From the IMG/VR virus record IMGVR_UViG_3300034073_004910, positions 1 to 64,000 of that record: a stretch of DNA of 64,000 bases; one strand, 5' to 3'. Each line of letters begins with the position of its first letter. Within the stretch, counting starts at the first letter, position 1. The stretch comes from a virus. Positions 1,568 to 48,517 of the stretch are shown piece after piece. The notes under the pieces are model-generated. The model saw nothing but the letters and a program-made list of their open reading frames with translations. It did not search any database and was not told the origin of the DNA. The translations under genes were made by a program, and so were the position numbers.

Positions 1568-1978
1568 TCAATATTTCTCCGTATAAAATTGAAAGTCTCC
1601 AATTTTCTCAACATAGTTTTTACTAGGAAAAGCGTCCCATTTATGACTATGAAAATAAAGCGTATCTCCTGGAAGTGAAACCACCTGCATAGGGTGTATT
1701 CTCAATATAAGTCGAGCAATACTACGAGACTGATCCCAGCTTTTTGCTTCCTTTGGATCGTCCGGTCGGCCATCACAATACCACTTAAACTGGCATTTAT
1801 TTTTTAAAGGAAAGTTAAATATGTGCGGTCCGTCTTGGACGACCGCACATACTGTGTTTGGGAAATTTTCGTGGTCTGTTCGATTCATTACTACTTGCGC
1901 GATTGCAATCTGTGTTTCCACAGGCTGATTTCGAGCTTCCCAATAAACTGTCAGTGCCAAGCAAATTTCCGCAAACAT
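1568..1978 (-). CDS. SleB/CwlJ-like cell wall hydrolase (Hydrolase_2)
   Basis: CLALTVYWEARNQ..AQVVMNR...FPNTVCAVV..CQFKWYCDG motif. Confidence 0.85.
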   Translation of the reverse strand: MFAEICLALTVYWEARNQPVETQIAIAQVVMNRTDHENFPNTVCAVVQDGPHIFNFPLKNKCQFKWYCDGRPDDPKEAKSWDQSRSIARLILRIHPMQVVSLPGDTLYFHSHKWDAFPSKNYVEKIGDFQFYTEKY

Positions 1979-3623: not shown

Positions 3624-3688
3624 ATTAAAATCCTCCTATAGAATTATAATACCAAAATTAACCCTCGCAGTCAAGAATTATTTTTTAC

Positions 3689-5464
3689 CTACCCTTCACA
3701 TGCTATACAATTTCCTTCGTCAAGACTATCAAAAATCATTTGCCTTAATGCTTCATCCGATACAGTTTCAGCGCGCTTGTATGCTTCGCTGCGGCAGTAA
3801 TACAGTGTTTTAACTCCGCGTTTCCAAGCCATCATATGTACTGCATGTAGCTCTTGTTTCGATACGTTTGCAGGAAAAAACAAATTCAACGATTGAGACT
3901 GGCAAATAAATTCTTGTCGATCTCCTGCCAAATCCACTACCCATCGCTGATCAATTTCAACTGCTGTTTTGAACACGCTCTTGGTGTACTCGTCGAGAAA
4001 ATCCAAATGCTGAACGCTACCATTATTGGTTACGATTGATTTCCAAACTTCGTCCGTATTTTGTCCAAGCTCTTCGAGAATAAACTCGAGATATTCGTTT
4101 TTAAGTAACGAGGTGCCTGACTTAGTTTTCTGACTAAACGCATTAGCCCGATAAGGCTCAATAGAAGGACTAGTATTACCGCAAATAATGCTGCTACTAG
4201 CGTTAGGAGCAATAGCGAGCAAATGAGCATTACGCATCCCCGAAGATTCTCCGTCGGGACAAGGTCCTCGAGATACTGCAAGACGTTTAGACTCCTCCAC
4301 GGCTTTGGCCTTGATATGACGGAACATACGAAGGTTGATAGACTTTGCCATTGCGCTTTCAAATGGAATATTATGTCTTTGTAAGTAAGCATGAAAACCC
4401 ATTCCTCCTAATCCAATGCTGCGCTCTCTCATTGCGCTGTATTTTGCTCTTGCCAACTGCGGCGGGGCCTGTTCAATAAAGTAAGTCAACACGTTGTCCA
4501 ACATTCGCACTAAATCTGCAATAAAGTGCGGATGATCTTTCCACTCGTCAAATTCTTCCAAATTTACACTTGAAAGACAGCAAACTGCTGTACGCTCGGC
4601 GTTCGTCGGAAGCGTAATTTCACTACACAAATTTGAGTGATGTACACGCAATCCAAGCTTCTTTTGAAATTCTGGCAGTGCATCGTTTACCGTATCTTCA
4701 AACATGATGTACGGCTCGCCAGTCTCAACTCGATTTTGAATGAGCTTGACCCAAAGTGCTTTTGCAGATACAATCTTTTTAACTTCGTTGCTGTGAGGAT
4801 CAATCAATGCCCAGTTATCATCGTAGCCTGGAGTGAGCGTTGCATTTTCAATAATTTGCATGAAACTGTTAGGAATTACAACTGCATGATGCAAATTTGT
4901 AGATTTGCGGTTAATATCTCCACCTGTCGGTTTTCGCATATCAAGAAACTCTTCAATTTCAGGATGCGACATATGAAGGTATGCAGCATAGCTACCACGA
5001 CGAGTAACACCTTGAGAAAATGCCAGCATTTCGGCATCTACGACTTTCATAAACGGAATGACTCCAGTCGACTCGCTGCCGTTTGACGTTTTTGAGCCTA
5101 CGCTTCGCACCGACGACCAATTTCCGCCGACCCCGCCACCGACTGAAGACAGCCACGCGTTCTCGGTATAATGTTCTGTGATACCTTCTCGGCTATCAGG
5201 CACATGATTTAAAAAACAAGAGATTGGCAGTCCTCGAGAGCTGCCTCCATTTGACAATATTGGAGTACTATACATAAACCACAGTTTAGATGCATAGTCA
5301 TACAATCGTTGCGCGTGCTCTTCGTCATCTGCAAACGACATTGCAGCTCGAGCAAAAGCTTCTTGAGGGCCTTTTTCGTTCGGAAGAAGATAACGATCTT
5401 CTAACGTCTTTTTTCCAAATTCTGAAAGTAGTCGGTCCCGCCCATTATTAATCTGTAGTGGCAT
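3689..5464 (-). CDS. nrdA: Ribonucleotide reductase class Ia alpha subunit
   Basis: STPILSN, ISCFL, SNLCSEI (catalytic Cys), IAPNASSS, KTLYYCR, C-terminal CIACEG. Confidence 0.95.
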   Translation of the reverse strand: MPLQINNGRDRLLSEFGKKTLEDRYLLPNEKGPQEAFARAAMSFADDEEHAQRLYDYASKLWFMYSTPILSNGGSSRGLPISCFLNHVPDSREGITEHYTENAWLSSVGGGVGGNWSSVRSVGSKTSNGSESTGVIPFMKVVDAEMLAFSQGVTRRGSYAAYLHMSHPEIEEFLDMRKPTGGDINRKSTNLHHAVVIPNSFMQIIENATLTPGYDDNWALIDPHSNEVKKIVSAKALWVKLIQNRVETGEPYIMFEDTVNDALPEFQKKLGLRVHHSNLCSEITLPTNAERTAVCCLSSVNLEEFDEWKDHPHFIADLVRMLDNVLTYFIEQAPPQLARAKYSAMRERSIGLGGMGFHAYLQRHNIPFESAMAKSINLRMFRHIKAKAVEESKRLAVSRGPCPDGESSGMRNAHLLAIAPNASSSIICGNTSPSIEPYRANAFSQKTKSGTSLLKNEYLEFILEELGQNTDEVWKSIVTNNGSVQHLDFLDEYTKSVFKTAVEIDQRWVVDLAGDRQEFICQSQSLNLFFPANVSKQELHAVHMMAWKRGVKTLYYCRSEAYKRAETVSDEALRQMIFDSLDEGNCIACEG

Positions 5465-6296
5465 TCATGTACTCCATAACTATGTTGTCGATATTCGACA
5501 CATTTTCCGTACCTATGGCTTCATCACAAAAGGTGAGTAAATCCATTAGGTTAAGATTTAATAAAATTCTATCCGCATGTTCATTTAATGATTGAATATA
5601 CTTGTATTTGCTTGAAATAGGGCAAGCATCATATAAATCTAGTGCCGAGCCATACTGTTCAATCAATCCAGAAGCTCGCTTCGGGCCTACGCCCGGAATT
5701 CCAAGAATATTATCGCCAGGGTCGCCTACGAGAGCTTTCCAAGACACATAATTTTCAATAGAAACATCATAAGGCCACTGTGAGGTTGATACTTCCTTAC
5801 GCGTGACATATGAAAATCTTGATACCTTATCAGAGATTAAACAATCCCAGTCTTTATCTGAAGAAATCAACCAAATATGGTCGATTTCATACTTGTTTGC
5901 TGTTTTGACTAGGTAGCCGGCAATATCGTCGGCCTCTACACCTTTATATCGAAGTACTGGATACTTTGTGAAATATTGGAGAGTACGCTCATACTCTTCG
6001 AAAAATTTCTCAAAAGCTTCTTTTTCTTCTTGAGTTTGCTGCTCTACTTTATCTTTGCGATTTTGCTTATACTCTGGGTACATTTCTTTTCGAAAGGAAC
6101 TACTGCCCCAGTCTGCCGCAATAATCACTTTTGAACAATCATAAGAACGCGCAAGAGATTCTACGGTTCTTACATATTCTTCTTTAAAGTCAGTTCGTCC
6201 TTGATGCTTCCATCTAAACGCTAGGTTCATTGAGTCAACAATCATTAGATTGTTGCCGCTCGGGCCGTTCATAAGAGTAGAGAAATTAGTTGCCAT
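5448..6296 (-). CDS. T5 D15-like flap endonuclease / 5'-3' exonuclease
   Basis: NLMIVDSMNLAFRW, GVEADD, LISSDKDWD, GDPGDNILGIPGVGPKRA. Confidence 0.9.
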   Translation of the reverse strand: MATNFSTLMNGPSGNNLMIVDSMNLAFRWKHQGRTDFKEEYVRTVESLARSYDCSKVIIAADWGSSSFRKEMYPEYKQNRKDKVEQQTQEEKEAFEKFFEEYERTLQYFTKYPVLRYKGVEADDIAGYLVKTANKYEIDHIWLISSDKDWDCLISDKVSRFSYVTRKEVSTSQWPYDVSIENYVSWKALVGDPGDNILGIPGVGPKRASGLIEQYGSALDLYDACPISSKYKYIQSLNEHADRILLNLNLMDLLTFCDEAIGTENVSNIDNIVMEYMNATTD

Positions 6297-35809: not shown

Positions 35810-36196
35810 TCATGATTGTATCTCAATATAATTGGCGGGGTTAACTGCCCGAGGCTTGAAAGTAATCTTTAATAGCCCGTCTTTAAACGTAGCGTCTGTC
35901 ACTTCAAGATTTTTTGGTACAAAAAAACTGCGCCGGAATGCTTTTCCACTTATACCCTTATGAATATAAGTTTCTGAGCTTAAACTTTTCTCTCCTTCTA
36001 CAAGCAGAATACCGTTGTCAAAATGAATCTTCACTTGTTCTTTTGACCAACCTGGAAGAGCCAAATCTACTCTATAGTTCTGATCTTCAAGCTTTACGAT
36101 ATTAAACCGAGGAAATGCGTCTACGTTCAGATCGCCAAAAAAGTCTGTAAAAAGCTTATCGCCACCCACAAAGAAGTGGTCAAGTAGTTTAGTCAT
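35810..36196 (-). CDS. Small heat shock protein (Hsp20/IbpA-like)
   Basis: FPRFNIVK..YRVDLALPG..YIHKGIS..FRRSF..ATFKDGLLKI. Confidence 0.9.
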   Translation of the reverse strand: MTKLLDHFFVGGDKLFTDFFGDLNVDAFPRFNIVKLEDQNYRVDLALPGWSKEQVKIHFDNGILLVEGEKSLSSETYIHKGISGKAFRRSFFVPKNLEVTDATFKDGLLKITFKPRAVNPANYIEIQS

Positions 36197-36476: not shown

Positions 36477-36689
36477 ACTTTTCTCCTAATTGAATTCCTA
36501 GAATTCAATCTGCTCTTAAAAGAGCTAAGGAACGCAGCTAGAGAATTCTAGCCACATTATCGAACCCATCCTCTTCCTCGTCTTTATCCCACCAGTCCGA
36601 ACTTTCTCGAGTGGAATAAATATCGTTAACACCAGCAAACAAAAGTATAATAACTAAAAATAAATTCACTATTGTTTTCCTAATTAGTG

Positions 36690-37030
36690 GGAGTTTTTCT
36701 GTTGCGAGGAGGTTCCTTTGGGGAACACAAAACTCCCGAAACCCCGAGAAATCATGCTGCTACAGCATATTCCTCATTATAAAAGTCATCGTTTGCTTTT
36801 ATATTTATTTGCTTCTTCGACCGGGAAGTCCCAATCCTAACGGCTTTCGCATTGCCGGATCGTCCGCGTCTTTTTCCTGCTCTGTCGAAACCAGAACACC
36901 CCCATCAAAGTATACTCTGTCGCCGTTTTTGCTACGCTGGTAACGACCAAGACCTCAAAGAATATACTTTGGTGGAGGTGGGCGGAGTCGAACCGCCTTC
37001 CAAAACAGTTCCAATCAACATCATACGATC
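36690..37030 (-). ncRNA. ssrA: Circularly permuted (two-piece) tmRNA; acceptor piece ends in CCA at 36970, coding piece begins at 36903, tag at 36796-36752
   Basis: GGCGGTTCGACTCCGCCCACCTCCACCA precedes GGGGGTGTTCTGGTTTCGAC; G3-U70 Ala identity; tag ANDDFYNEEYAVAA*. Outer ends are approximate. Confidence 0.9.
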
Positions 37031-37155
37031 ATAATTGCTCAGTTTGGATTCGAACCTTGTCCGTGTATTGTCTACCCGCACGTCCCACCGTACTGACCGA
37101 GCAAATTTATTTATTTACTTTACAGTGAGTATTATAGTAAATCTTGAGCTAAAGG

Positions 37156-37416
37156 TCAAGAATTATTTTTGGGGAGGCTAGCGTTTTTATGACTATAAAA
37201 CTCCTCTAAGTGCTCTTTGAAAGTGTTATAAGTTTTGTCAAACTTATAGCTATAGAGAGTTACAAGCGAGAGCATAAAATTGTCGATTTTATCCGTAAAC
37301 TCAGCCGACAGCCCAGCAAATTCTTCGCTATCCAAAACTTCTCGAAAAAGTTTCAGATCGTCAATAATTTGCCAGACTTCCATAAGCTGTTGTTCAAGAT
37401 CAAATTGTTTGCTCAT
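37156..37416 (-). CDS. Hypothetical protein (paralog of the N-terminus of 38091-38555)
   Basis: QFDLEQQLMEVWQIIDDLK vs QFDLEQQIMDCWGIVDDLK. Confidence 0.55.
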   Translation of the reverse strand: MSKQFDLEQQLMEVWQIIDDLKLFREVLDSEEFAGLSAEFTDKIDNFMLSLVTLYSYKFDKTYNTFKEHLEEFYSHKNASLPKNNS

Positions 37417-47779: not shown

Positions 47780-48517
47780 ATGCATAAATATGAAACTGTC
47801 TTTATTTCCGACCTGCATCTTGGCAGCAAAGGCTGCCAGGCGGAGAAACTGAACGAATTTCTAAAAATTGTAGAGTGTAAAAATCTTTTTCTAGTGGGCG
47901 ATATACTTGACGGCTGGAAAGTTGCTCAAAATAAAATGCACTGGAAAAACTCTCATACGAGCGTAATTCGTCATATTCTTCGACTGGCAAAGAATGGTAC
48001 GAAAGTTCATTATGTTGTGGGCAATCACGATGAGTTTCTTCGACCCCTGTTAAAGTATTCCATGACTTTTGGACGAATTGAAATTGCAAACTCTTTTACT
48101 CACGTTGGGCTGAACGGTAAACGATATCTAGTAGTGCATGGAGATTTTTTCGACGGCATTACTCGATTGGCTCCGTGGCTAAGCTTTTTAGGTGATCGAG
48201 CTTATGGAATATTGCTTAGTATAAACTACCGATTTAACTGGATACGCCGTAAGTTTGGTTTTGGATACTGGAGTTTGAGTGCTTGGCTGAAGCATCGAGT
48301 GAAAAGAGCAATTGACTTTTTATTTGAGTTTGAAAACAATATTACTAGCTATGCGAACCGAAAAGGTTATCAAGGAGTAATTTGTGGCCACATTCATACT
48401 GCTAGTATTAAAATGATTAACGATATTGAATACATGAACGACGGAGACTGGGTAGAATCTTGTACTGCACTGGTCGAGACCGAAGAAGGAGAATGGAGAA
48501 TATTATGCTTGTCCTGA
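47780..48517 (+). CDS. LpxH-like UDP-2,3-diacylglucosamine diphosphatase / metallophosphoesterase
   Basis: FISDLHLG, LVGDILDGW, GNHDE, HGDFFD, CGHIH, NDGDWVESCTAL. Confidence 0.85.
   Translation: MHKYETVFISDLHLGSKGCQAEKLNEFLKIVECKNLFLVGDILDGWKVAQNKMHWKNSHTSVIRHILRLAKNGTKVHYVVGNHDEFLRPLLKYSMTFGRIEIANSFTHVGLNGKRYLVVHGDFFDGITRLAPWLSFLGDRAYGILLSINYRFNWIRRKFGFGYWSLSAWLKHRVKRAIDFLFEFENNITSYANRKGYQGVICGHIHTASIKMINDIEYMNDGDWVESCTALVETEEGEWRILCLS

What the first reader, a model, noticed from the sequence alone, without database searches (positions are those of the whole stretch)
36690..37030. Phage-encoded circularly permuted two-piece tmRNA
Seen: the T-arm/acceptor 3' half (..GGCGGTTCGACTCCGCCCACCTCCACCA) lies upstream of the 5' half (GGGGGTGTTCTGGTTTCGAC). 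Between them is a self-complementary intervening segment (AAAGTATATTCT..AGAGTATACTTT). The G3-U70 pair, the P2 pairing AGAGCAG/CTGTTTT and the tag frame ANDDFYNEEYAVAA* are intact. Known: permuted ssrA genes occur in Alphaproteobacteria and in some cyanobacterial and betaproteobacterial lineages, and the tag resembles Caulobacter ANDNFAEEFAVAA. Inference: the phage supplies its own ribosome-rescue RNA, relying on host SmpB (none in this window). The gene form also hints at the host group.
Basis: partly seen in the sequence, partly recalled or inferred. Interest (0 to 1): 0.78.

Follow-up and report, generated by a model that had tools for sequence, protein, structure and literature searches.

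The report
Phage two-piece tmRNA with extra hairpin
An uncultured T5-like phage carries an intact ribosome-rescue RNA gene (tmRNA) written in swapped, two-piece order; such phage genes are already published, but this one belongs to a virus-only subgroup with an extra hairpin and a lengthened tag, and it does not reveal the host.

Summary
A circularly permuted tmRNA gene lies on the minus strand at about 36689-37030. ARAGORN reads the tag ANDDFYNEEYAVAA, and Rfam tmRNA_permuted scores 116 bits (cut-off 47). The record is a 94 kb, about 91% complete T5-like phage contig with no SmpB and no integrase.

Related phages keep the gene. Across 38 distinct relatives, 93% of the proposed base pairs hold, 34 of 47 pairs show compensatory changes, and G3-U70 never varies.

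Phage two-piece tmRNAs are already published: Buchholz 2022 lists 53 in cultured phages, including phiCbK, HTVC008M and Melnitz. This scan has also met them before on other DNA. The basic claim is therefore not new.

The host inference fails. The T-loop is canonical, whereas 34 of 34 sampled alphaproteobacterial tmRNAs have GGC(A/G)GUN. The beta model scores best (85.5 against 50.1 bits).

New here: a ~22-nt hairpin sits upstream of the resume codon. Its exact motif occurs in 69 IMG/VR contigs and in none of 185,579 species genomes. Within this subfamily the tRNA-like and mRNA-like modules are shuffled. This phage's own relatives carry lengthened tags of 12-14 residues; in the four members aligned, the extra length is a shared four-codon insertion. 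The host remains unresolved.

The parts
37131..37159 (-). Sigma-70-type promoter: TTGACC, 17-nt spacer, TATAAT. It would start the precursor near 37124.
   Evidence: 11 of 12 consensus matches. This is a consensus match only. No comparable promoter was found upstream in relatives L109 and L156.
37035..37104 (-). 5' leader with a cloverleaf-like fold: a 9-bp closing stem and three hairpins, containing GGUUCGAAUCC. Role unknown.
   Evidence: Free energy -21.5 kcal/mol, z = -2.76, 1 of 200 shuffles folds as well. No Rfam match, tRNA included, at E <= 10.
36970..37030 (-). Acceptor piece core. It holds GAUCG (37026-37030, pairs with the coding piece), P2 strand CUGUUUU (37002-37008), the T-arm (36981-36997, canonical loop UUCGACU), acceptor 3' strand CACCUCC (36974-36980), discriminator A and the encoded CCA (36970-36973).
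   Evidence: Rfam alignment. Family covariation: T-arm 100% paired with 5 of 5 pairs compensated; P2 95.9% paired.
36904..36969 (-). Intervening segment, 66 nt. It is a hairpin whose 13-bp closing stem abuts the CCA end and stops 2 nt before G1 of the coding piece. It is presumed to be excised.
   Evidence: Fold z = -2.72. In the family, 11 of 12 closing-stem pairs show compensatory changes while the sequence and length (23-122 nt) vary.
36884..36903 (-). 5' end of the coding piece: acceptor 5' strand GGGGGUG (G3 pairs with U70) and the D-loop analogue ending UUUCGAC.
   Evidence: Sequence. G3-U70 is present in 57 of 57 family members where the TLD could be located, with nine compensated acceptor-stem versions. 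The acceptor stem is 99.2% paired.
36858..36883 (-). P2 strands of the coding piece: AGAGCAG (36877-36883) and CGAUC (36858-36862). They pair with the acceptor piece.
   Evidence: Rfam alignment; covariation.
36841..36857 (-). P3 hairpin, CGGC-AAUGCGAAA-GCCG.
   Evidence: Predicted fold. 100% paired in the family, with a GC/UA swap in 20 versus 17 sequences.
36808..36841 (-). Extra hairpin motif GUUAG-GAUUGGG-ACUU-CCCGGUC-GAAGAAGCAAA (stem-loop at 36819-36836). It is a ~22-nt insertion relative to cellular permuted tmRNAs, and the motif ends about 11 nt upstream of the resume codon.
   Evidence: The spacing from TCGAC to the resume codon is 87 nt here, against 63-68 nt in 34 alpha and 7 beta cellular tmRNAs and in Melnitz. 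It is a 20-nt insert against the Rfam consensus. The exact motif occurs in 69 viral contigs and in 0 of 185,579 species genomes. 100% paired, with a GC/AU swap in 21 versus 15 sequences.
36752..36796 (-). Tag reading frame: resume codon GCA, peptide ANDDFYNEEYAVAA, TGA stop.
   Evidence: ARAGORN. Alignment A2 shows a 12-nt, 4-codon insertion shared with L109, L151 and L156, relative to the 10-codon tags of the rest of the subfamily.
36689..36751 (-). 3' domain. It holds the long stem GGGAGUUUU/AAAAACUCCC, the conserved GCAACAGAA loop, and a possible pseudoknot pairing CGGGG with CCUCG.
   Evidence: Fold gives z = 0.2, no better than shuffles. The family stem has only moderate support, 61-65% paired against 18-46% in slid controls, on a poor alignment. 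The pseudoknot is my reading of the sequence and was not tested.

Best explanation
This is a working phage copy of ssrA in the circularly permuted, two-piece form.

Shown:
- The gene has every sequence feature that defines a tmRNA.
- It sits in a lytic T5-like phage genome.
- It is kept in related phages.
- Its helices are maintained by compensatory changes.

Inferred from established tmRNA biology (Keiler 2000; PMC11915505):
1. One precursor is made, probably from the promoter at 37131-37159.
2. Host RNase P cuts just before G36903, and host 3' processing exposes the encoded CCA at 36970. This discards the 66-nt hairpin.
3. The two pieces stay joined through the acceptor stem and P2.
4. Host AlaRS charges the RNA through G3-U70.
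5. Host SmpB and EF-Tu deliver it to ribosomes stalled on broken mRNAs.
6. Translation resumes at GCA and appends ANDDFYNEEYAVAA, whose ...AVAA end would send the product to host ClpXP-type proteases.

Likely benefit to the phage: ribosomes stay free while the phage degrades host mRNA and host ssrA expression falls.

The gene belongs to a virus-only subfamily marked by an extra hairpin just upstream of the resume codon. Its tRNA-like domain is of the canonical (beta-like) type, and its tag was lengthened by four codons within this phage clade.
For: - ARAGORN and Rfam calls.
- Phage identity and completeness.
- No SmpB in this record or in complete relatives. No integrase.
- The gene is present in all four related contigs of 81% completeness or more: G000, G809, G813 and G819.
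- G3-U70 in 57 of 57 members, with nine compensated acceptor stems.
- 93.3% pairing, 34 of 47 pairs compensated, 0 of 500 shuffles as high.
- All 70 members keep an AN(D/E)...A-ending tag frame with a stop codon.
- A strong promoter match.
- Published precedent for phage two-piece tmRNAs (PMC9004378).
Against: - There is no expression, processing, charging or tagging data for this or any member of the subfamily.
- The promoter is only a consensus match and is not conserved in relatives.
- The 3' domain folds no better than shuffled sequence, and its family support is only moderate.
- The extra hairpin lies where frame selection is sensitive, so it could alter function rather than preserve it.
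- The host, and therefore the matching SmpB, AlaRS and ClpX, is unknown.
Confidence: 0.8

Rival explanations
1. The RNA is a decoy. It binds host SmpB or stalled ribosomes and blocks the host's own trans-translation rather than performing it, as proposed for the tRNA-like-domain-only RNA of mycobacteriophage DS6A.
For: The phage has no SmpB of its own. A DS6A-like RNA was reported to inhibit tmRNA (PMC4131195, PMC11915505). The extra hairpin next to the resume codon could in principle disturb frame setting.
Against: A decoy needs no tag frame. Yet the resume codon, an AN(D/E)...AA tag and a stop codon are kept in all 70 subfamily members. The four-codon insertion is in frame.
Confidence: 0.07
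2. The RNA does perform trans-translation, but its lengthened, acidic tag gives tagged proteins a different fate from host-tagged ones. For example, it might engage a different adaptor or protease, or evade one.
For: Tags of 12-14 residues are confined to this phage's relatives (window, L109, L156, L103, G809, G813) plus L151. The other 65 of the 70 motif-bearing members (69 contigs plus the window) have 9-10-residue tags.
Against: The C-terminal AVAA/ALAA/RLAA endings remain of the ordinary ClpX-recognised kind. Cellular alphaproteobacterial tags also range from 10 to 15 residues. No adaptor gene was looked for or found.
Confidence: 0.1
3. The gene is a non-functional relic: a host ssrA copy or att-site remnant picked up by imprecise excision, or host DNA mis-assembled into a viral contig.
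For: ssrA is a common prophage integration site, and fragments occur in prophages (PMC9004378, PMC4383910).
Against: The gene is complete. There is no integrase. The genome looks lytic and T5-like. No cellular genome holds a close copy: only ~30-nt T-arm matches in 802 genomes. The gene is conserved with compensatory changes across phages whose terminases are only 54-63% identical.
Confidence: 0.03

Closest known systems
Two-piece ssrA of Methylophilales (OM43) phage Melnitz and the pelagimyophages HTVC008M and Mosig (Buchholz et al. 2022, PMC9004378)
   Same: A phage-encoded, permuted, complete tmRNA. Melnitz also has a 14-residue tag (ANDNYVPVDYALAA) and a similar RF04321 score, 113 against 116 bits.
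   Different: Melnitz has the alpha-type T-loop and alpha_tmRNA is its best model (106.7 bits). It has no extra hairpin (about 63-nt spacing) and carries a true glutamine riboswitch directly after the gene (RF01739, 52.8 bits). The window has none of these; no riboswitch appears at E <= 10. Melnitz is a T4-like myophage, whereas this phage is T5-like.
Permuted tmRNAs listed for other cultured phages: Caulobacter phiCbK group, Roseobacter DSS3_MAL1, Sphingobium Lacusarx and Synechococcus cyanophages (PMC9004378, Table S1)
   Same: The same kind of element in large lytic phages, several of them siphophages that also carry tRNA sets.
   Different: None resembles this gene at the DNA level in a search of 50,697 GenBank phage records. 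I did not inspect their structures individually.
Betaproteobacterial two-piece tmRNA (Rfam RF01850; Sharkady and Williams 2004)
   Same: Canonical T-loop, the acceptor CACCUCCACCA/GGGGGUG, and GGUUUCGAC. It is the best lineage-specific model, at 85.5 bits against a cut-off of 84.
   Different: Cellular examples have 63-67-nt spacing and no extra hairpin, and their tags are 10-11 residues. The score only just passes the cut-off. BLAST finds only ~30-nt matches in 401 genomes of the order.
Alphaproteobacterial two-piece tmRNA (Rfam RF01849; Keiler, Shapiro and Williams 2000)
   Same: Permuted order. Tag length and an acidic ...EE(F/Y)AVAA ending like ANDNFAREEFAVAA of a Methylopilaceae genome.
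   Different: The T-loop is GGC(A/G)GUN in 34 of 34 sampled genomes, and the tags begin ANDN. The window has UUCGACU and ANDD. alpha_tmRNA scores only 50.1 bits against a cut-off of 50.
One-piece tmRNAs of mycobacteriophages (Bxz1 group) and Bacillus phage G (PMC4131195)
   Same: Phage-borne ssrA without a phage smpB.
   Different: They have the standard gene order and infect different host phyla.

Membership tests
tmRNA, permuted form (Rfam RF04321) | Score above the curated cut-off of the covariance model | tested here: met
   116.4 bits against a cut-off of 47, covering the full model 1-213
tmRNA, permuted form (Rfam RF04321) | tRNA-like domain: 7-bp acceptor stem with G3-U70, discriminator A, CCA and a T-arm | tested here: met
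   Read from the sequence. Invariant U-G in 38 of 38 sequences, T-arm 100% paired. G3-U70 in 57 of 57 members
tmRNA, permuted form (Rfam RF04321) | The acceptor 3' half lies upstream of the 5' half, with an intervening segment between them | tested here: met
   36970-36997 lies upstream of 36884-36903 on the minus strand, with a 66-nt hairpin between
tmRNA, permuted form (Rfam RF04321) | A tag reading frame that opens with an Ala resume codon and ends in hydrophobic ..AA plus a stop codon | tested here: met
   GCA...ANDDFYNEEYAVAA-TGA
tmRNA, permuted form (Rfam RF04321) | P2 helices hold the two pieces together | tested here: met
   CUGUUUU/AGAGCAG and GAUCG/CGAUC. In the family, 95.9% and 83.3% paired, with compensatory changes
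tmRNA, permuted form (Rfam RF04321) | The precursor is cleaved into two RNAs, is alanylated and acts with SmpB | not testable with these tools
   Needs a Northern blot or RNA-seq and biochemistry. No SmpB gene is in the phage
Alphaproteobacterial tmRNA lineage (RF01849) | Non-canonical T-loop GGC(A/G)GUN | tested here: not met
   The window has UUCGACU. 34 of 34 sampled alphaproteobacterial genes have GGC(A/G)GTN
Alphaproteobacterial tmRNA lineage (RF01849) | Clear score on the lineage model | tested here: inconclusive
   50.1 bits against a cut-off of 50. True alpha genes score 282 bits (L015) and 107-125 bits for phage alpha-type genes
Betaproteobacterial tmRNA lineage (RF01850) | Canonical T-loop and a score above the cut-off on the lineage model | tested here: met
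   Canonical T-loop. 85.5 bits against a cut-off of 84, only marginally above
Betaproteobacterial tmRNA lineage (RF01850) | mRNA-like domain of the usual length (63-67 nt from TCGAC to the resume codon) and a 10-11-residue tag | tested here: not met
   87 nt, because of the inserted hairpin, and a 14-residue tag
Riboswitch-linked phage tmRNA (Melnitz type) | A glutamine riboswitch (RF01739) at the 3' end of the gene | tested here: not met
   No match at E <= 10 in 36600-37150. The positive control Melnitz scores 52.8 bits

The most novel reading that the evidence does not exclude
The gene belongs to a tmRNA lineage that lives only in viruses.
- It is marked by a ~22-nt hairpin (GAUUGRG...CYCGGUC, flanked by GUUAG and GAAGAAGCAAA) inserted just upstream of the resume codon.
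- It circulates among unrelated phages.
- Its tRNA-like domain is exchanged independently of its mRNA-like domain: mRNA-like domains 90-94% identical are joined to tRNA-like domains only 52-66% identical, of alpha or canonical type.
- In this T5-like clade it gained a four-codon tag insertion.

This would mean that phages maintain and tune their own trans-translation RNA rather than repeatedly borrowing the host's gene. It would also mean that phage tmRNA type cannot be used to infer the host.
Probability: 0.5. Interest if true: 0.6.

Novelty: new variant of a known kind. Interest (0 to 1): 0.42.

Why it matters
The headline claim, that a phage carries a two-piece tmRNA, is already in the literature, so it adds only another example, this time in a T5-like phage.

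Three things could matter to tmRNA and phage specialists.

1. A conserved structural insertion lies next to the resume codon, the place where the reading frame is set. It is found in about 70 viral contigs but in no cellular genome searched.
2. There is direct evidence that the tRNA-like and mRNA-like halves of phage tmRNAs recombine as modules. This undermines the use of tmRNA type as a host marker, an argument made in the Melnitz host-switch paper.
3. A clade-specific lengthening of the degradation tag gives a simple handle for testing whether phages redirect tagged proteins.

All three can be tested with ordinary reporter assays.

Tried and rejected
- **Alphaproteobacterial origin or host from the tag.** Rejected for the RNA scaffold: T-loop type, model scores and signature searches all disagree.
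- **Exact tag search.** Back-translating the tag found nothing in viral or genome collections. A looser 14-residue pattern found only one Methylopilaceae genome and one phage-like contig.
- **Close cellular donor.** BLAST of the gene against 401 Burkholderiales-order and 401 alphaproteobacterial genomes gave only ~30-nt T-arm matches.
- **Host hint from the LpxH/PlcP-like gene (47780-48517).** A word-seeded search returned mostly marine Alphaproteobacteria. Matched samples gave equal best matches in both groups, 52-53% against 51-53% identity and 279 bits each. The hint was a seeding artefact.
- **Glutamine riboswitch as in Melnitz.** Absent.
- **Synteny anchor through the neighbouring lysozyme gene.** No relatives found.
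- **L008 contig as a related phage.** It has the closest tmRNA by BLAST but no related PolA or TerL.
- **GenBank phages with this subfamily.** None found using the window and L094 as queries. Short motifs would escape BLAST, so absence is not proven.
- **5' leader as a tRNA.** The fold is cloverleaf-like, but there is no Rfam match.
- **3' pseudoknot.** Only moderate, inconclusive support.
- **Unavailable sources.** Sharkady and Williams 2004 is not held in the library. The supplements of the tmRNA database paper held nothing on phages.

Full report
**Observation**

ARAGORN calls a permuted tmRNA at 36661-37062 on the minus strand, with the tag ANDDFYNEEYAVAA*. Rfam's tmRNA_permuted model (RF04321) matches 36752-37030(-) over its full length at 116.4 bits, against a cut-off of 47.

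On the minus strand the order of elements is:
- T-arm, 36981-36997
- acceptor 3' strand and ACCA, 36970-36980
- a 66-nt intervening segment, 36904-36969
- the 5' half GGGGGTGTTCTGGTTTCGAC, 36884-36903
- the P2 strands and a small hairpin
- the tag frame, 36796-36752
- a 3' domain reaching about 36689

The intervening segment has a 13-bp closing stem with z = -2.7.

**Context**

The window is the first 64 kb of a 94,402-nt IMG/VR virus record that CheckV rates 91% complete. It encodes a large terminase, a family A DNA polymerase, a DnaB-like helicase, ribonucleotide reductase, an SbcC-like nuclease and an NAD-dependent ligase.

The polymerase and terminase are 44-48% identical to those of T5-like phages of Vibrio, Escherichia, Salmonella and Klebsiella. 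This is therefore a distant T5-like lytic phage. No integrase and no SmpB are found in the whole record.

A near-consensus sigma-70-type promoter, TTGACC-17-TATAAT, lies about 65 nt upstream of the gene. Downstream on the same strand lie a 63-residue ORF, an Hsp20-family gene and a phage lysozyme.

**Is the gene maintained?**

Terminase relatives were collected from IMG/VR. The near-complete ones carry a permuted tmRNA:
- G813: 104 kb, 98% complete, TerL 54% identical, tmRNA 118 bits
- G809: 85 kb, TerL 63% identical, tmRNA 92.6 bits

A 106 kb, 100% complete contig (G819, locus L156) shares DnaB, ligase and other genes with the window at 48-60% identity and also has the gene. None of these has SmpB.

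An alignment of 38 distinct family members was scored against the helices proposed for the window's gene.
- 93.3% of cells pair, against 40-45% when partners are slid.
- 34 of 47 pairs show compensatory changes.
- No shuffle out of 500 reaches the observed values.
- The G3-U70 wobble is invariant.
- The T-arm is 100% paired, and 11 of the 12 closing-stem pairs of the excised segment show compensatory changes.

Across 57 members where the tRNA-like domain could be located, the acceptor stem occurs in nine compensated versions, always with G3-U70. This is strong comparative evidence for a functional RNA.

**What is already known**

Buchholz et al. 2022 (PMC9004378) described a two-piece tmRNA in the OM43 phage Melnitz. 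They surveyed 18,146 phage genomes: 402 encode a tmRNA, and 53 of the 133 distinct forms are two-piece, 50 of those from marine or aquatic phages. Their Table S1 lists the Caulobacter phiCbK group, Pelagibacter HTVC008M and Mosig, a Roseobacter phage, Sphingobium phage Lacusarx and several cyanophages. The 2025 tmRNA database holds 79 phage sequences (PMC11915505).

Earlier notes of this scan record the same kind of gene on other viral DNA, and one follow-up judged its case an ordinary member.

**Lineage and host**

The RNA scaffold says otherwise.
- The lineage-specific models give beta_tmRNA 85.5 bits (cut-off 84), alpha_tmRNA 50.1 (cut-off 50) and cyano_tmRNA 50.2 (cut-off 70, tRNA-like domain only).
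- A search for the window's tRNA-like-domain signature found eight viral contigs. All are beta-type by Rfam, at 100-159 bits, with 10-residue tags. Among 185,579 species genomes it found only three Herbaspirillum.
- All 34 sampled alphaproteobacterial tmRNAs have the T-loop GGC(A/G)GTN and never the canonical one. Their tags begin ANDN. The window has TTCGACT and ANDD.
- Permuted genes were found in 116 of 121 sampled Alphaproteobacteria. Only 4 strong and 4 borderline cases turned up among 151 genomes of the GTDB order that holds the former Betaproteobacteria. Each tally includes one unpublished genome, G447 and G033. No sequence from either is used here.

The tag itself does resemble alpha tags in its 14-residue length and its EE(Y/F)AVAA ending; compare ANDNFAREEFAVAA in a Methylopilaceae genome. 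The gene thus combines a beta-like scaffold with an alpha-like tag.

An independent host clue was sought from the phage's LpxH/PlcP-like gene. A word-seeded search returned mostly marine Alphaproteobacteria. Matched samples of 201 genomes from each group gave the same best identity and score, so that clue is void. The host is unresolved.

**A virus-only subfamily with an extra hairpin**

Aligning the window with viral and cellular examples showed a ~22-nt insertion between the P3 hairpin and the resume codon, shared with viral locus L008. It folds as a 7-bp hairpin, GAUUGGG-ACUU-CCCGGUC.

The distance from the D-loop end (TCGAC) to the resume codon is 87-89 nt in the window and L008. It is 63-68 nt in 34 alpha and 7 beta cellular genes, in viral genes without the motif, and in Melnitz. 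Rfam's consensus, built from 296 cellular sequences, shows the same 20-nt insert.

The exact motif GTTAGGATTG-N6-16-GGTCGAAGAAGCAAA occurs in 69 IMG/VR contigs and in none of the 185,579 species genomes. No similar gene turned up in 50,697 GenBank phage records using two full-length queries.

Two caveats apply. The motif's invariance within the set follows from how the set was found. An exact pattern would also miss diverged cellular versions. Within the free positions of the stem, one pair switches between G-C (21 sequences) and A-U (15).

**Module shuffling**

Of the 57 subfamily members whose tRNA-like domain could be located, 37 have canonical T-loops and 19 have alpha-type T-loops.

On a tree of the mRNA-like domain, the T-loop type needs at least 7 changes, and the well-supported branches alone force at least 2. 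Shuffled labels average 9, so the label is barely clustered.

Several pairs have mRNA-like domains 90-94% identical but tRNA-like domains only 52-66% identical, for example L119 against L148 and L090 against L096.

Rfam's lineage models also disagree with T-loop type. L094 has an alpha T-loop but its best model is beta (98.7 bits). L159 has a canonical T-loop but its best model is alpha.

The simplest reading is recombination between phage tmRNA genes, although repeated conversion of the T-loop by point mutation is not excluded. Either way, tmRNA type is a poor guide to the host.

**Lengthened tags**

Most of the subfamily has 10-residue tags of the ANDxx(F/Y)ALAA kind. Tags of 12-14 residues occur in the window's own relatives:

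| Locus | Tag |
|---|---|
| L109 | ANDDIYEQEYALAA |
| L156 | ANDDVYFEDIRLAA |
| L103 | ANDDVYSEDFALAA |
| G809 | ANDNDSFADIRLAA |
| G813 | ANDSIFEVRLAA |
| L151 | ANDNYYTEELRLAA |

In alignment A2 the extra length in the window, L109, L151 and L156 is one homologous 12-nt insertion containing GAGGA.

**Comparison with Melnitz**

Melnitz was fetched as a control. It has an alpha T-loop, its best model is alpha_tmRNA (106.7 bits), and its tag is ANDNYVPVDYALAA. It has no extra hairpin. A genuine glutamine riboswitch sits directly after the gene (RF01739, 52.8 bits). The window has no riboswitch match even at E <= 10.

**Mechanism and rivals**

The best explanation is an ordinary trans-translation RNA supplied by the phage and run on host RNase P, AlaRS, SmpB, EF-Tu and proteases. 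The processing, charging and tagging steps are inferred from established tmRNA biology and are not shown here.

- A decoy role is unlikely, because the tag frame is conserved in all 70 members.
- A relic or att-site remnant is contradicted by completeness, conservation, the lack of an integrase and the lack of any close cellular copy.
- A retargeting role for the long tag remains possible.

**Verdict**

This is a real, intact phage two-piece tmRNA. The phenomenon is already known, the host inference is not supported, and the new content is the virus-only hairpin subfamily, the module shuffling and the clade-specific tag insertion.

Noticed in passing
window 37035-37104 (-): The leader between the promoter and the acceptor piece folds into a cloverleaf-like four-way junction: a 9-bp closing stem and three hairpins, containing GGUUCGAAUCC. 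Free energy is -21.5 kcal/mol, z = -2.76. No Rfam family, tRNA included, matches at E <= 10. No such promoter was found upstream of L109 or L156; their leaders were not folded. It might be a tRNA-like processing signal or a decayed tRNA.
   Followed up: partly
window 35810-36196 (-): An Hsp20/alpha-crystallin family gene lies just downstream of the tmRNA on the same strand, before the lysozyme gene. Two protein-quality-control functions therefore sit side by side.
   Followed up: no
L008, L090-L155 (about 35 loci); window 1568-1978 (-): In many unrelated viral contigs of the hairpin subfamily, a PF07486 cell-wall hydrolase gene lies directly downstream of the tmRNA. Its homolog in the window is far away, at 1568-1978. 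This suggests a tmRNA-lysin module that moves together.
   Followed up: partly
L114, L120, L127, L147, L149: ARAGORN calls 'tRNA-Pyl' (anticodon CTA), that is, amber-suppressor-type tRNAs, within 1-3 kb of the tmRNA in five viral contigs.
   Followed up: no
L016 (JASBTZ010000017.1, labelled a Bacteroidota MAG) 3641-3933 and 4112-5777: A 44 kb contig binned as Bacteroidota carries an alpha-type permuted tmRNA (tag ANDNFVSEEFALAA) next to eight tRNA genes. It is probably phage DNA placed in the wrong bin.
   Followed up: partly
L094, L097, L109, L119, L135, L156 and others: Several subfamily members encode CCT or CCG instead of CCA after the discriminator base, so their 3' end would have to be completed by a CCA-adding enzyme.
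   Followed up: no
L012, L013, L014 (Herbaspirillum): The two-piece tmRNAs of three Herbaspirillum species encode tags ending ...AYGT (for example ANDSQFLAYGT) rather than the usual ...LAA.
   Followed up: no
window 47780-48517 (+): The phage carries an LpxH/PlcP-like metallophosphoesterase that is 51-53% identical to homologs in both Alphaproteobacteria and the Burkholderiales order. It is a widespread bacterial enzyme and gives no host signal.
   Followed up: yes
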